Shown one piece after another: positions 1 through 19,758 of a DNA stretch of 25,915 nt. Source of the DNA: a virus (Duplodnaviria; Heunggongvirae; Uroviricota; Caudoviricetes). How positions within the stretch are numbered: the first letter of the stretch is position 1; each line of letters begins with the position of its first letter. Below the pieces are notes generated by a model that worked only from the letters and a program-made list of their open reading frames with translations, had not been told where the DNA came from and did not search any database. The position numbers and the translations under genes were made by a program. The DNA is taken from the IMG/VR virus record IMGVR_UViG_2671180841_000012, positions 1 to 25,915 of that record. One strand, given 5' to 3'.

Positions 1-981
1 TTATAACGTCACTCCGCCTTTTAGTGGATTCAGAGCGACGGCATTTTGCAGATAGTCAGGCGCAAGGTGCGCATAGGCCATCGTCTGCTGAATGCTCGCA
101 TGTCCCAGAATCTGTTGCAGTGCGATTATATTGCCCCCATTCATCATGAAATGGCTTGCGAATGTATGCCGCAGGATATGGGTTGCCTGATTGGGTGGTA
201 TATCAGGTTTCACTCTGCGTAAAATCCCGCAAAATTTCTCATAATCAACTTTGAATAATTTGGCGCTGGCCTCCTCTTTAACTTTTTTCTCCAGTTCCTC
301 AGAAATCGGCACGGTTCGCTTTTTACCGTTTTTGGTTTTCAGGAAGGTAACCCTGCAATTTGTAATCTGTGCTGGTTTTAGCGTGGCAACTTCCGTCCAT
401 CTTCCTCCAGTGCTCAGACATAAAAGCGCGACAAGTAAGTCATCACCAGCCAAAACATTTAACAGTTTTTCGATTTCTGCTTTTTCCAGGAACGTCATTT
501 CAGGGTTGGCCTCCGCCAGTGGCGGCAGTCCGTGAATTGGGTGTTGCCCGGAAAATTCATCCAATTGAATTAATTTTGTGAACATGCCGGATAATCGGTA
601 CATGTCACGGTTTATCGTTGCGGCACTGATACCATCACGTAGTCGCATGGAACGATAATCCATCAAAGCCCTTTTGCTCATCCTGTTCACTGGTATATCA
701 CCTATGCCGCTGATGGTTTTGAGTAGATGATTAAACTCTTTTGTTCCATGCTCGTGGTTTTGCCCGTGATATTTCCACCAGATGTCCAGCAACTCACTCA
801 AAGTCCGGCGGTCTGCTCGCTGGCCTCCCCATTCTTTCTGACTGGCATTGGCGATTGTGTATCGCTCAAATGCTAGTGCTTCAGCTTTTCTTTCGAATTT
901 CCTGCGGATGCGTTTTCCGTCGCGACCGCGAGGTCTAATGTCCACTTCATAGCGACCATCATCGAGCTTCTTAATTGCCAT
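1..981 (-). CDS. int: P2-type tyrosine integrase
   Basis: Minus-strand ORF 1..1011; product most likely starts at the second in-frame Met (MAIKKLDDGRYEV...), the first Met adding 10 residues. C-terminal region ATHILRHTFASHF...MAYAHL is typical of tyrosine recombinases. Lies next to the C repressor as in P2. Stop codon is bases 1-3, so the attachment site must be just outside the window. Confidence 0.88.
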   Translation of the reverse strand: MAIKKLDDGRYEVDIRPRGRDGKRIRRKFERKAEALAFERYTIANASQKEWGGQRADRRTLSELLDIWWKYHGQNHEHGTKEFNHLLKTISGIGDIPVNRMSKRALMDYRSMRLRDGISAATINRDMYRLSGMFTKLIQLDEFSGQHPIHGLPPLAEANPEMTFLEKAEIEKLLNVLAGDDLLVALLCLSTGGRWTEVATLKPAQITNCRVTFLKTKNGKKRTVPISEELEKKVKEEASAKLFKVDYEKFCGILRRVKPDIPPNQATHILRHTFASHFMMNGGNIIALQQILGHASIQQTMAYAHLAPDYLQNAVALNPLKGGVTL

Positions 982-1050
982 AAGAAAGCCCTCCGGCGCT
1001 GTATTCACCATCTTGGTAGCAAATGGTGAAAATGTAATCTTTATATAGAG

Positions 1051-1344
1051 TTATCCAATCCTTTTCTCGGAGTGGTTGGACTCTGTTGACTCTGGCCCAA
1101 TGTGCGCGAGAGCCGGTGCGATTTGTCCTGCGTCCGGCGCGGTTTTATCTGTCATAAGCCATAAAGCATATTTTTGGAATGTGGGATGCATAGTGATTTT
1201 TAGCAAAGCTGTGCCACCGGGTTCAAAGTTTCCTCCTTCATATTTTTTAAGTGTGCTTAGCGGTAACTCTATGATTTCACAGAATTTTGATTGGCTTAGC
1301 CCTTCAGCCTCACGCAAGGCCTTAATCTTTTCGCTTAATTTCAT
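1051..1344 (-). CDS. C: P2 C-like immunity repressor
   Basis: 97-aa minus-strand ORF with N-terminal helix-turn-helix-like region and the motif QIAPALAH that I recall from P2 C; divergent from cox and upstream of int, as in the P2 C-int operon. Confidence 0.8.
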   Translation of the reverse strand: MKLSEKIKALREAEGLSQSKFCEIIELPLSTLKKYEGGNFEPGGTALLKITMHPTFQKYALWLMTDKTAPDAGQIAPALAHIGPESTESNHSEKRIG

Positions 1345-1465
1345 TTGACATGGTGCCTATATAGGGACTAAATTCCCTCAAAACTGGAACCTATATAGGT
1401 TCCATTGATTTGAGAATAAACCAGCGTCTAAACGGTTTTGAGTGGTTTAGAAAGGGCTGGATCCT
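1345..1465. promoter_or_regulatory. Divergent early promoter/operator region between C and cox
   Basis: 121-bp intergenic region between divergent genes. Contains a perfect 18-bp palindrome GGAACCTATATAGGTTCC (1386-1403) and a second copy of the palindromic core CCTATATAGG (1356-1365), 34 bp centre to centre. Confidence 0.55.
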
Positions 1466-1753
1466 ATGAGGGTACCATATATGGACGCTGAAAATTATGT
1501 GATTCAGTATCCGCTTGATGCGGTTCATGTGGATAAATTTGCTGATTTATTAGGGAAGCCAAAGACAGCCGTCAGTGAAATGGTGAAGGCAAATAAATTA
1601 CCAATTATTGAATTGCGTGATCCTTGCAAACCGAAGGCTCGTGCCGGTGAAAAATGGGTTTTCATTCCTGAGTTTAATCGCGCTGTACGTGAGGCGTTTT
1701 ATAACCGACCGGTTGAACAGCGTGATGCATGGCTTTTGTGGATGGGGTTGTGA
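1466..1753 (+). CDS. cox: Cox-like excisionase / early-promoter repressor
   Basis: 95-aa ORF (start could instead be the Met at 1481); conserved C-terminal half AGEKWVFIPEFN...RDAWLLWMGL resembles P2 Cox; first gene of the rightward early operon. Confidence 0.75.
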   Translation: MRVPYMDAENYVIQYPLDAVHVDKFADLLGKPKTAVSEMVKANKLPIIELRDPCKPKARAGEKWVFIPEFNRAVREAFYNRPVEQRDAWLLWMGL

Positions 1754-18601: not shown

Positions 18602-19758
18602 CAGTGAAATACTACGCCATTCTGACTAATCAGGGCGCAGCACGGCTGGCTAACGCGACGATGCTCGGCAGTAAGCTGAATCTGACGCAAATGGCCGTTG
18701 GTGATGCGAATGGTGTCTTGCCGACACCAGACCCGGCACAGACAAAACTGATTAACCAGAAACGCATCGCGCCGCTGAATCTTCTGAGTGTTGACCCGAA
18801 CAACCAGAGCCAGATTATTGCGGAGCAAATCATCCCTGAGAACGAGGGCGGATTCTGGATCCGTGAGATTGGGCTTTATGATGATGAAGGCGTACTCATT
18901 GCGGTGGCGAACTGCCCGGAAACGTACAAACCGCAGTTGCAGGAAGGCAGTGGTCGTACCCAGACTATCCGCATGATTCTGGTTGTCACGAATACCGAAG
19001 CTATCACGCTGAAAATCGACCCGTCGGTGGTACTGGCGACCCGTAAATACGTGGATGATGAAGTCCTGGAATTAAGGCTGTATGTGGATGACCAGATGAG
19101 AAACCACATTGCCGCACAGGATCCTCATACCCAGTATGCGCAGAAACATAATCCGACATTTACCGGAGAACCAAAAGCGCCGACGCCTGCCGCAGGAAAT
19201 AACACCACGCGGATTGCGACCACTGCGTTTGTTCAGGCCGCTATTACCGCTCTGATTAACGGTGCGCCAGCCACGCTGGACACACTGAAAGAAATTGCCG
19301 CAGCCATTAACAATGACCCGAAATTCAGTACCACCATTAACAATGCGCTGTCAGGTAAGCAGCCACTGGATGAGACGCTGACTCATTTGAGTGGAAAGGA
19401 TGTAGCTGGTCTTCTCGCATACCTTGGTTTGGGAGAAGCGGCAAAACGGAATGTGGGAACAGGGGAAAATCAGATACCTGATATGTCATCATATGCATCA
19501 GGTTCAGGCTGGCGAAAAATGCCAGATGGTTCAATTGAACAGTGGGGACGAATTCGTTTTCCTGGTGAACACGGGCCTGTATCCGCCAATGTTTCATTCC
19601 CGATTCCATTTACACAGACACCGGGCATTGTAATTGTGTGCGATGGTGGTTTCGGGGGCGGGAATATGTGGGGGGCGACCAACTGGAGCACTACCGGCTT
19701 CATAGCTCACTGCAATTATGGTCTTGAAGGTGGTGCGTTTTTCGCTAAGGGCTGGTAA
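18598..19758 (+). CDS. H: Tail fibre protein H (constant N-terminal part fused to invertible C-terminal variable part)
   Basis: 386-aa ORF; the N-terminal ~275 residues resemble the P2-type fibre shaft (MAVGDANG...[20 protein letters not shown]); the C-terminal ~110 residues lie beyond the crossover site at 19412-19437. Confidence 0.85.
19412..19437. repeat. hix/gix-like recombination site inside H (proximal end of invertible segment)
   Basis: TTCTCGCATACC-TT-GGTTTGGGAGAA: two 12-bp half-sites in inverted orientation around a 2-bp core (10 of 12 symmetric); 19421-19437 is the exact reverse complement of 21237-21253. Confidence 0.7.

What the first reader, a model, noticed from the sequence alone, without database searches (positions are those of the whole stretch)
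1345..1465. Perfect 18-bp palindrome and repeated palindromic core in the C/cox switch region
GGAACCTATATAGGTTCC (1386-1403) is a perfect palindrome, and its core CCTATATAGG recurs at 1356-1365. These are likely operator sites for C and/or Cox overlapping the divergent promoters. They differ from the direct-repeat operators described for P2 C, hinting at a different immunity specificity despite P2-like early genes.
Basis: partly seen in the sequence, partly recalled or inferred. Interest (0 to 1): 0.4.

Follow-up and report, generated by a model that had tools for sequence, protein, structure and literature searches.

The report
Palindromic repressor operators in P2-like switch
The two palindromes are almost certainly the paired binding sites where this P2-like prophage's immunity repressor C shuts off the early lytic promoter; the layout is that of phage WPhi, but each site here is itself a palindrome.

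Summary
O2 is a perfect 20-bp palindrome (1385-1404). The first copy lies in a 20-bp near-palindrome, O1 (1351-1370, 8 of 10 pairs). All four arms fit TGGnnCCTATA.

The sites lie between divergent genes C (1051-1344, -) and cox (1481-1753, +). They flank the -10 of a strong predicted early promoter, Pe (TTGACA 1345-1350, 18 bp, TAAATT 1369-1374). Unit length (10-bp core), 34-bp spacing and position match the mapped C operator of phage WPhi.

Natural genetics supports a C operator. The virulent phage R18C and the clear-plaque mutant L-413C have a normal C protein. Their only private substitutions in 801 bp hit both sites (R18C 1364 and 1390; L-413C 1356 and 1402, plus 1373 in the -10). None of 420 E. 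coli prophages has more than one change in this stretch outside 1373-1375.

Cox binding is unsupported. "Differs from direct repeats" is half right: two repeats in WPhi geometry, each dyad-symmetric. The promoters are face-to-face, not divergent.

This is a common, known immunity class (L-413C type, 7.7% of complete E. coli genomes) whose operator was, as of the 2007 paper read here, unmapped. Interest is modest. No binding experiment exists.

The parts
1051..1344 (-). Gene C, the immunity repressor (97 aa, helix-turn-helix)
   Evidence: ORF. phmmer hit to P2 C structures 2L49/2XCJ, E 3.6e-21. Pfam HTH_3. 99% identical to C of L-413C, R18C, P24B2 and FSL SP-004.
1345..1350 (+). Pe -35 hexamer TTGACA, abutting the C start codon
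   Evidence: It is part of the only promoter-like site in 1000-1800 and of the best PWM score, 14.7 against at most 8.9 for any other. It has the same position as the annotated WPhi Pe promoter next to the C ATG.
1351..1370 (.). O1: 20-bp near-palindrome TGGTGCCTATATAGGGACTA (core CCTATATAGG at 1356-1365). It fills the Pe spacer and overlaps the first two bases of the -10.
   Evidence: Both strands match TGGNNCCTATATAGG, with 0 and 1 mismatch. Private substitutions fall here in L-413C (C1356A) and R18C (G1364T). Its position equals that of WPhi O1.
1369..1374 (+). Pe -10 hexamer TAAATT (18-bp spacer). The transcript start is inferred at about 1380-1382.
   Evidence: At least 88 of 420 E. coli prophages vary only at 1373-1375 within 1345-1410. 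Examples are T1374C, T1373C plus T1374C, and C1375T. The start site is inferred by analogy with the WPhi promoter feature, which ends 6 nt after its -10.
1385..1404 (.). O2: perfect 20-bp palindrome TGGAACCTATATAGGTTCCA (core 1390-1399), at about +5 to +24 of the Pe transcript
   Evidence: Private substitutions fall here in R18C (C1390T) and L-413C (C1402A). Its centre is 34 bp from the O1 centre, as in WPhi.
1377..1414 (.). Extended dyad around O2, with outer arms CTCAAA (1377-1382) and TTTGAG (1409-1414). It is the local form of a dyad that surrounds O2 in most P2-like switch classes.
   Evidence: The minus-strand RNA fold is -17.9 kcal/mol, z -4.9; the plus-strand fold is -11.3, z -3.7. An 11-pair helix on 35 switch classes is 81.7% paired against 70.5% in shuffles, with covariation 0.287 against 0.133 and 0 of 500 shuffles reaching it.
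1405..1480 (.). Rest of the spacer. It is presumed to hold Pc and the Cox binding sites, but neither is resolved.
   Evidence: No convincing minus-strand promoter was found; the best scores are 5.6-6.7. In WPhi and P2 the annotated Pc lies to the right of O2, towards cox.
1481..1753 (+). Gene cox (90 aa from ATG 1481; an in-frame ATG at 1466 would give 95 aa)
   Evidence: Pfam PF10743 Phage_Cox, E 1e-23. The 1481 start aligns with the WPhi cox start and is the start annotated in R18C and FSL SP-004.

Best explanation
The two palindromes are O1 and O2, the paired operator sites of the immunity repressor C of this P2-like prophage.

Shown:
- Each site is a 20-bp dyad with arms TGGnnCCTATA. The centres are 34 bp apart, about three helical turns.
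- O1 fills the spacer of the strong early promoter Pe and overlaps the start of its -10.
- O2 lies just downstream of the inferred transcript start.

Inferred:
- C is a symmetric HTH dimer in its homologue P2 C. One C dimer binds each site, here with both recognition helices able to read the same sequence.
- The two bound dimers cooperate and bend the DNA. This excludes RNA polymerase from Pe, silencing cox and the replication genes, and so maintains lysogeny and superinfection immunity.
- As in WPhi and P2 Hy dis, losing one site is tolerated. Escape from repression needs a hit in both.

The extra symmetry around O2 (1377-1414) is shared by most switch classes of the family. It may additionally form a hairpin at the 5' end of the Pe transcript or in the leader of the C mRNA.
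For: 1. Context. The gene order is int, C and cox, followed by ORFs matching the orf78, B and A genes annotated in L-413C. C is homologous to P2 C and Cox is Pfam Phage_Cox.

2. Promoter. Pe (TTGACA, 18 bp, TAAATT) is the only strong promoter-like site. It occupies the same place as the annotated WPhi Pe.

3. Geometry. The mapped WPhi operator is two 10-bp repeats (TATTGGTGAC) 34 bp apart flanking the Pe -10 (PMC1904268; sequence). Here the 10-bp cores start 11 and 45 bp after the start of the -35, against 12 and 46 in WPhi.

4. Natural operator mutants.
- I compared 801 bp (1000-1800) across 61 sequences of this class. The only private substitutions of L-413C are at 1356 (O1), 1373 (-10) and 1402 (O2). 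Those of R18C are at 1364 (O1) and 1390 (O2).
- Both phages encode the consensus C protein.
- L-413C is a clear-plaque mutant (PMC3448106). R18C is described as virulent (PMC6823313).
- My arithmetic for five of five private changes falling in a 47-bp span of 801 bp is about 7e-7.
- Literature: single half-site mutations do not relieve repression, while double mutations abolish it in WPhi and P2 Hy dis (PMC1904268).

5. Conservation in lysogens.
- 420 of 5426 complete E. coli genomes carry this switch.
- With 1373-1375 masked, 402 have no change in 1345-1409, 18 have exactly one, and none has two.
- The two single-change genomes I looked at vary at 1351 and 1352: inside the 20-bp O1 site (its outer TGG arm) but outside the 10-bp core.
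- Of 58 further loci from viral, metagenome and genome collections, 55 are identical, one is R18C itself, one has T1374C and one has A1404G.

6. Co-variation with the repressor. The closest other classes keep the same architecture with altered repeats:
- 86%-identical C: ATGGAACCTATATGT twice, 33 bp apart.
- 72-76%-identical C: CCTATTTAGG plus CCTATATAGG, or TTGTTCCTATTTAGGA plus TTGTTCCTATATGGGA.
- More distant classes have unrelated repeats at the same positions.
Against: - No binding, footprint or reporter data exist for this class. Everything here is comparative.
- The true parent of L-413C (L-413) is not available, so 'private substitution' is relative to the consensus of relatives.
- The R18C paper calls it virulent and lytic but reports no lysogeny or immunity test.
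- The long symmetry at O2 could owe part of its length to a family-wide dyad or hairpin rather than to C contacts.
- In the WPhi-class control I found only single operator hits in plaque-isolated phages, not double hits.
- Pc could not be placed, so a role of O2 in Pc control is open.
- How many bases of the 20-bp dyad C actually reads is unknown.
Confidence: 0.85

Rival explanations
1. The O2 palindrome, with its outer arms at 1377-1414, is primarily an RNA element. It would be a stable hairpin a few nucleotides from the 5' end of the Pe transcript, acting as a stabiliser. Its complement would sit in the leader of the C mRNA made from Pc. The repeated core would then be secondary.
For: - The folds are stable: -11.3 kcal/mol (z -3.7) on the plus strand and -17.9 (z -4.9) on the minus strand.
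- A dyad surrounds O2 in most of 35 switch classes, with compensating changes: covariation 0.287 against 0.133 in shuffles, 0 of 500 reaching it.
- In WPhi the annotated Pe feature ends at the first base of the equivalent stem.
Against: - The same arms (TGGnnCCTATA) recur at O1, upstream of the Pe start, where no comparable hairpin is needed (that fold is only -7.1 kcal/mol, z -2.2).
- The private mutations of R18C and L-413C hit O1 as well as O2. R18C's C1390T would leave a G-U pair in the plus-strand RNA.
- There is no strand bias in wobble-compatible mismatches, 19 against 15, so the covariation fits a symmetric protein site equally well.
- No Rfam family matches.
- This rival can coexist with the operator role.
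Confidence: 0.15
2. The palindromes are binding sites of Cox, the lytic repressor and excision factor, through which Cox shuts off Pc or autoregulates Pe.
For: - Cox is encoded next door and acts in this spacer in P2.
- At high concentration P2 Cox spreads towards Pe (PMC3936717).
- From my memory of the WPhi switch paper, not checked here, the WPhi Cox recognition sequence is not defined.
Against: - P2 Cox is a winged-helix oligomer. It needs at least four to six 9-bp boxes at 10-11 bp period and protects at least 70 bp. Two dyads 34 bp apart do not fit.
- The sites sit on Pe, not where Pc is annotated in P2 and WPhi.
- Loss of Cox sites would not give clear-plaque or virulent phages.
- The repeats change between classes in step with C.
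Confidence: 0.04
3. The TATATA centres are promoter -10 elements. In particular, the O2 centre read on the minus strand would be the -10 of Pc. The flanking symmetry would then be incidental.
For: Weak minus-strand candidates exist: TTCTCA, 17 bp, TAGGTT (1416 to 1388, score 6.7) and TTTATT, 17 bp, TATATA (score 2.6). Pc is described as much weaker than Pe in WPhi (my memory of the WPhi switch paper, not checked here).
Against: - The O1 TATATA lies 7 bp from the -35 and cannot serve Pe. The Pe -10 is TAAATT.
- A Pc start near 1381 would give no overlap with the Pe transcript, unlike the face-to-face arrangement annotated in P2 and WPhi, where Pc lies nearer cox.
- A -10 element does not explain a 20-bp perfect dyad or its repetition.
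Confidence: 0.08

Closest known systems
Phage WPhi C operator (O1/O2, TATTGGTGAC twice)
   Same: - The repressor is homologous (57% identity).
- The cores are 10 bp, 34 bp apart, and flank the -10 of Pe.
- The TTGACA -35 abuts the C start codon, and O2 lies inside a dyad.
- In WPhi both sites are needed for repression in vivo.
   Different: The sequence is different, so the phages should be heteroimmune. WPhi's units are described as non-palindromic direct repeats. Here each unit is a palindrome extending to 20 bp.
Phage P2 C operator (O1/O2, GTTTAGAT twice) and the P2 C crystal structure (2XCJ)
   Same: The repressor family is the same (E 3.6e-21). There are two repeats flanking the Pe -10. 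The switch is a face-to-face Pe/Pc pair with Cox.
   Different: - P2 has 8-bp units 22 bp apart, and C is 43% identical.
- The P2 paper stresses that a symmetric dimer must read a non-palindromic site, with one helix binding non-specifically (PMC2995052). Here both helices could read identical arms.
P2 Hy dis C operator
   Same: The same family, with two 8-bp repeats. Double mutation abolishes repression.
   Different: The repeats flank the -35 rather than the -10 and are 26 bp apart, so they lie on opposite faces of the helix.
Lambdoid, 434 and P22 c2 operators, and 186 CI operators
   Same: These are dyad-symmetric sites of 14-20 bp read by an HTH dimer. P2 C superimposes on the P22 c2 and 434 DNA-binding domains (PMC2995052).
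   Different: Those repressors are unrelated in sequence or are two-domain proteins (186 CI is 196 aa). They use three or more sites with back-to-back promoters (lambda) or distal sites (186). Here there are two sites, a 97-aa repressor and face-to-face promoters.

Membership tests
P2-type C/Cox lysis-lysogeny switch (Peduovirus) | A small (about 100 aa) HTH repressor homologous to P2 C | tested here: met
   phmmer against the PDB finds 2L49/2XCJ 'C protein' at E 3.6e-21 over residues 3-97. The C-terminal QIAPALAH block is invariant in the alignment with P2, WPhi and P37.
P2-type C/Cox lysis-lysogeny switch (Peduovirus) | A Cox homologue as first gene of the opposing operon | tested here: met
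   Pfam PF10743 Phage_Cox, E 1e-23, 83 bits against a cut-off of 27.5.
P2-type C/Cox lysis-lysogeny switch (Peduovirus) | Face-to-face promoters Pe and Pc in the C-cox spacer | tested here: inconclusive
   Pe is clear. No convincing Pc was found on the minus strand. Pc is annotated in WPhi and P2, but the corresponding sequence is not alignable here.
P2-family C operator (paired 'half-sites') | Two copies of an 8-10 bp sequence, 22-34 bp centre to centre, flanking a Pe hexamer | tested here: met
   CCTATATAGG occurs at 1356 and 1390, 34 bp apart, on either side of the -10 at 1369-1374. This is the same geometry as WPhi.
P2-family C operator (paired 'half-sites') | The units are non-palindromic direct repeats, as stated for P2 and for the seven classes known in 2010 (PMC2995052) | tested here: not met
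   O2 is a perfect 20-bp palindrome and O1 holds 8 of 10 pairs. Among 28 class representatives this class is the most symmetric, at 7/9 and 9/9 pairs.
P2-family C operator (paired 'half-sites') | Both units are required for repression; single mutations are tolerated | tested here: inconclusive
   The evidence is indirect. The two virulent or clear phages each carry one hit per site and have an intact C. No prophage of 420 has two hits. No functional assay has been done.
P2-family C operator (paired 'half-sites') | Physical binding by the cognate C protein | not testable with these tools
   This needs an EMSA or footprint with purified C.
L-413C / R18C / P24B2 immunity class | C proteins at least 95% identical within a group, and the same spacer (definition in PMC3448106) | tested here: met
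   C is 99% identical (one residue, E93 against the consensus A93). The 201-bp switch is 100% identical to P24B2, 'P2' of O157:H43 T22, vB_YpM_50, P2_AC1 and others.
Intrinsic terminator | A GC-rich hairpin followed directly by a U-tract, at the end of a transcription unit | tested here: not met
   The consensus scan lists 1385-1404 followed by TTGATTTGAG. However, the site lies about 5-24 nt after the Pe start and upstream of every early gene. The equivalent dyads in other classes are followed by G/C-rich sequence.

The most novel reading that the evidence does not exclude
In this immunity class each so-called half-site is a complete, classical dyad operator, read symmetrically by one C dimer. 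The 'non-palindromic direct repeat' recognition that defines the P2 C family would then be a decayed form of ordinary palindrome recognition.

If so, the two sites could be arranged directly or invertedly, as several uncharacterised classes appear to show. This class would also be the natural substrate for the missing C-DNA co-structure.
Probability: 0.4. Interest if true: 0.5.

Novelty: new member of a known kind. Interest (0 to 1): 0.33.

Why it matters
- It assigns an operator to one of the commonest P2-like immunity classes. That class is present in 7.7% of complete E. coli genomes and includes the plague-diagnostic phage L-413C.
- It offers a concrete explanation for why L-413C makes clear plaques and why R18C behaves as a virulent phage: one substitution in each operator site, with a normal repressor.
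- It supplies a fully symmetric site for a repressor family whose published puzzle is how a symmetric dimer reads asymmetric direct repeats.
- None of this changes the known logic of the P2-type switch.

Tried and rejected
- Key papers not available. Karlsson 2006 (immunity classes) and Garcia 2008 (L-413C) are not held. I therefore could not check whether these repeats or the L-413C mutations were already described. A full-text search for CCTATATAGG found no phage paper.
- Pc could not be located. A PWM scan gave only weak minus-strand candidates. The WPhi Pc region has a 22-nt insertion and is not alignable.
- RNA versus protein as the cause of the dyad around O2. Wobble-compatible mismatches show no strand bias, 19 against 15, so this is undecided. 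RNAalifold alone recovered only 5 pairs.
- Rfam gave only a chance miRNA hit, E 0.56.
- Terminator reading: rejected on position.
- Cox-site reading: rejected on binding mode.
- WPhi-class positive control. Plaque-isolated phages vB_YpM_22 and STYP1 each carry one change, at the first base of O2 or O1, but there are no double hits. This is suggestive only.
- General claim that all classes have symmetric sites. Support is weak: the O1 zone averages 5.4 of 9 pairs against 4.85 in coding controls, p 0.004. This window's class is the extreme case.
- I did not determine the positions of 16 of the 18 E. coli prophages that carry a single extra change.

Full report
**What is there**

The window opens with a P2-like lysogeny module:
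- int, 1-1011, minus strand;
- C, 1051-1344, minus strand;
- cox, 1481-1753, plus strand;
- then ORFs that correspond in position to the orf78, B and A genes annotated in L-413C.

C is a 97-aa helix-turn-helix protein homologous to the crystallised P2 C repressor (2XCJ/2L49, E 3.6e-21). Cox matches Pfam Phage_Cox.

- TGGAACCTATATAGGTTCCA (1385-1404) is a perfect 20-bp palindrome.
- The first copy lies in TGGTGCCTATATAGGGACTA (1351-1370), where 8 of 10 dyad pairs hold.
- All four arms fit TGGnnCCTATA. There are 4 matches with up to 2 mismatches against 0.19 expected, and 0 of 100 shuffles reach 4.
- A perfect palindrome of 20 bp or more turns up somewhere in 13 of 300 shuffles of the window. 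The window as a whole is poor in palindromes, with 2 of 12 bp or more against 7.85 expected.
- The 10-mer occurs nowhere else in the window.

**Where it sits relative to promoters**

The only strong sigma-70-like site in the region is TTGACA (1345-1350), an 18-bp spacer, then TAAATT (1369-1374) on the plus strand. Its PWM score is 14.7, against at most 8.9 for anything else. The -35 abuts the C start codon, exactly as in phage WPhi, whose Pe is annotated in AJ245959.

O1 therefore fills the Pe spacer and overlaps the first two bases of the -10. O2 lies at about +5 to +24 of the inferred transcript. The site centres are 34 bp apart.

I could not place Pc. The minus strand has only weak candidates, and the annotated Pc regions of WPhi and P2 do not align with this spacer.

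**Comparison with mapped operators**

According to PMC1904268:
- P2 C binds two 8-bp direct repeats 22 bp apart flanking the -10.
- P2 Hy dis C binds 8-bp repeats 26 bp apart flanking the -35.
- WPhi C binds 10-bp repeats 34 bp apart flanking the -10.

The WPhi sequence reads catTTGACAgtaaccTATTGGTGACtTATATT...gtgTATTGGTGACc. The repeats start 12 and 46 bp after the start of the -35. Here the 10-bp cores start at 11 and 45.

So the elements have the WPhi architecture with a different sequence. The literature would call them direct repeats. What is unusual is that each unit is itself a palindrome. The family is known for 'non-palindromic direct repeats' read by a symmetric dimer (PMC2995052).

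**Natural genetics**

The switch is 99-100% identical to that of L-413C, R18C, P24B2, 'P2' from O157:H43 T22, FSL SP-004, vB_YpM_50, P2_AC1 and others.

I aligned 801 bp (1000-1800) of 61 sequences of this class:
- The only substitutions private to L-413C are C1356A (O1 core), T1373C (-10) and C1402A (O2 arm).
- The only ones private to R18C are G1364T (O1 core) and C1390T (O2 core).
- Both phages encode the consensus C protein.

L-413C arose as a clear-plaque mutant (PMC3448106), and R18C was published as a virulent P2-like phage (PMC6823313). By my arithmetic, the chance of five of five private changes falling in a 47-bp span of 801 bp is about 7e-7.

This is the pattern expected from experiment. 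In P2, P2 Hy dis and WPhi, a point mutation in one half-site leaves repression intact. Mutations in both abolish repression in P2 Hy dis and WPhi, and reduce it in P2 (PMC1904268). A third plaque-isolated phage, HQ103, has intact sites but a frameshifted C.

**Conservation in lysogens**

- 420 of 5426 complete E. coli genomes carry the switch at 99% identity or more.
- In 1345-1410, 106 differ from the window.
- With 1373-1375 masked, 402 are identical, 18 have one change and none has two.
- The four -10-region variants I fetched are T1374C (twice), T1373C plus T1374C, and C1375T.
- The two single-change genomes I fetched vary at 1351 and 1352. These lie inside the 20-bp O1 site, in its outer TGG arm, but outside the 10-bp core.
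- I ran a flank-anchored pattern scan that allows any sequence between 1351 and 1408. It returned 58 further loci from viral, metagenome and genome collections. Of these, 55 are identical, one is R18C itself, one has T1374C and one has A1404G.

So the cores are essentially invariant in prophages, while the end of the -10 is a hotspot.

**Co-variation with the repressor**

I retrieved eighty loci encoding C homologues. They give about 50 distinct switches.
- The nearest class (C 86% identical, same recognition helix LSTLKKYE) has ATGGAACCTATATGT twice, 33 bp apart. It keeps the left arm and loses the right.
- Classes at 72-76% identity have CCTATTTAGG plus (G/T)CCTATATAGG(C/A), or TTGTTCCTATTTAGGA plus TTGTTCCTATATGGGA, 32-33 bp apart.
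- More distant classes have unrelated repeats at the same two positions.
- Among 28 class representatives this window's class is the most dyad-symmetric, at 7/9 and 9/9 pairs.

**The dyad around O2**

In most classes O2 lies inside an inverted repeat, typically ..CAAAAGG, 14 nt, then CCTTTTG... An 11-pair helix drawn on 35 classes is 81.7% paired against 70.5% in shuffles. Its covariation score is 0.287 against 0.133, 0 of 500 shuffles reach it, and slid controls are much lower.

Here the equivalent is CTCAAA (1377-1382) and TTTGAG (1409-1414) around the 20-bp palindrome. It folds at -11.3 kcal/mol on the plus strand and -17.9 on the minus strand. Wobble-compatible mismatches show no strand bias, and Rfam has nothing.

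I therefore cannot say whether this is an RNA hairpin or a DNA-level symmetry. If it is RNA, it would sit at the 5' end of the Pe transcript, in the C leader, or both. It may explain why O2 is more perfectly symmetric than O1. It does not explain the O1 copy or the O1 mutations.

**Mechanism, with status of each step**

Shown:
- two 20-bp dyads 34 bp apart bracketing the Pe -10;
- a P2-C-type repressor encoded next door;
- invariance of the cores in lysogens;
- paired hits in two lytic derivatives that have a normal C.

From the literature on homologues:
- C is a dimer in solution and bends DNA;
- both sites are needed in vivo.

Inferred:
- one C dimer binds per dyad, here able to make the same contacts with both helices;
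- the dimers occupy the same face of the helix, about three turns apart, and cooperate to exclude RNA polymerase from Pe;
- this gives immunity specific to this class and distinct from P2 and WPhi.

**Rivals**

- Cox binding is unlikely. P2 Cox needs many 9-bp boxes at 10-11 bp period and gives a footprint of at least 70 bp.
- The -10 reading fails for Pe and is weak for Pc.
- A terminator is excluded by position.

**Novelty**

The sequence itself is already in many database phages, and the immunity class is known. The operators of only P2, P2 Hy dis and WPhi had been located according to PMC1904268.

I could not read the 2006 paper that catalogued putative repeats for the seven classes, so the repeats may already have been noted there as 'direct repeats'. 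The palindromic nature and the reading of R18C and L-413C as double operator mutants were not found in any held paper.

I rate it a new member of a known kind, of modest interest. Its main use would be as a symmetric substrate for working out how this repressor family reads DNA.

Noticed in passing
window 1373-1375: At least 88 of 420 E. coli prophages with this switch differ from the window only at the end of the Pe -10 or the base after it. The variants seen are T1374C, T1373C plus T1374C, and C1375T. T1374C removes the near-invariant last T of the -10, which suggests promoter-down, non-inducible ('domesticated') prophages. They may be clonal lineages.
   Followed up: partly
L076-L155 (switch = reverse complement of about 530-703); alignment A4: Most P2-like switch classes carry a conserved inverted repeat (..CAAAAGG, 14 nt, CCTTTTG..) around O2, starting about at the Pe transcript start. 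Its outer pairs covary. The function is unknown. Candidates are a 5' hairpin of the early mRNA, an element of the C leader, or a protein site.
   Followed up: partly
L003 654-701 (phage P37); also L102, L120, L137, L147: In several uncharacterised immunity classes the repeated 16-19-bp elements flanking the Pe -10 are inverted relative to each other rather than direct. An example is P37: GTCCTGACTTAATGAC and GTCATTAATCCAGAAC. The published generalisation is that all classes use direct repeats.
   Followed up: partly
L006 (Yersinia phage HQ103), C gene: HQ103 has wild-type operator sites but a frameshifted C, truncated after about residue 61. This is a different route to a lytic phenotype in the same immunity class.
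   Followed up: partly
L156 (vB_YpM_22) and L157 (STYP1), WPhi-class switch: Among WPhi-class phage records, vB_YpM_22 has T to A at the first base of the mapped O2. STYP1 has T to C at the first base of the mapped O1. Each is a single operator hit.
   Followed up: partly
window 1466 / 1481: cox has two in-frame ATGs. L-413C annotates the upstream one (95 aa). R18C and FSL SP-004 annotate the downstream one (90 aa). Alignment with WPhi cox favours 1481.
   Followed up: partly
window 1067 (C codon 93): This window's C has Glu93, where 69 of 71 other loci of the class have Ala and one has Thr. Only one other locus shares Glu93. The residue lies in the tail that is disordered and dispensable in P2 C.
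   Followed up: no
window 1039-1050: An imperfect palindrome CTTTATATAGAG lies in the short int-C spacer. It is conserved in P37 and partly in WPhi, so it is not immunity-specific. Its function is unknown.
   Followed up: no
window 1405-1450: To the right of O2 there is an inverted repeat, TCTAAAC (1428-1434) and GTTTAGA (1444-1450). There is also a repeated TTTGAG (1409 and 1438). These are candidates for Pc or Cox-site elements. WPhi has CCTAGAA(A/G)GGAC twice in the same area.
   Followed up: no
window, whole: Perfect palindromes of 12 bp or more are under-represented: 2 observed against 7.85 in shuffles. The other one is GTTCAATTGAAC at 19529-19540.
   Followed up: no
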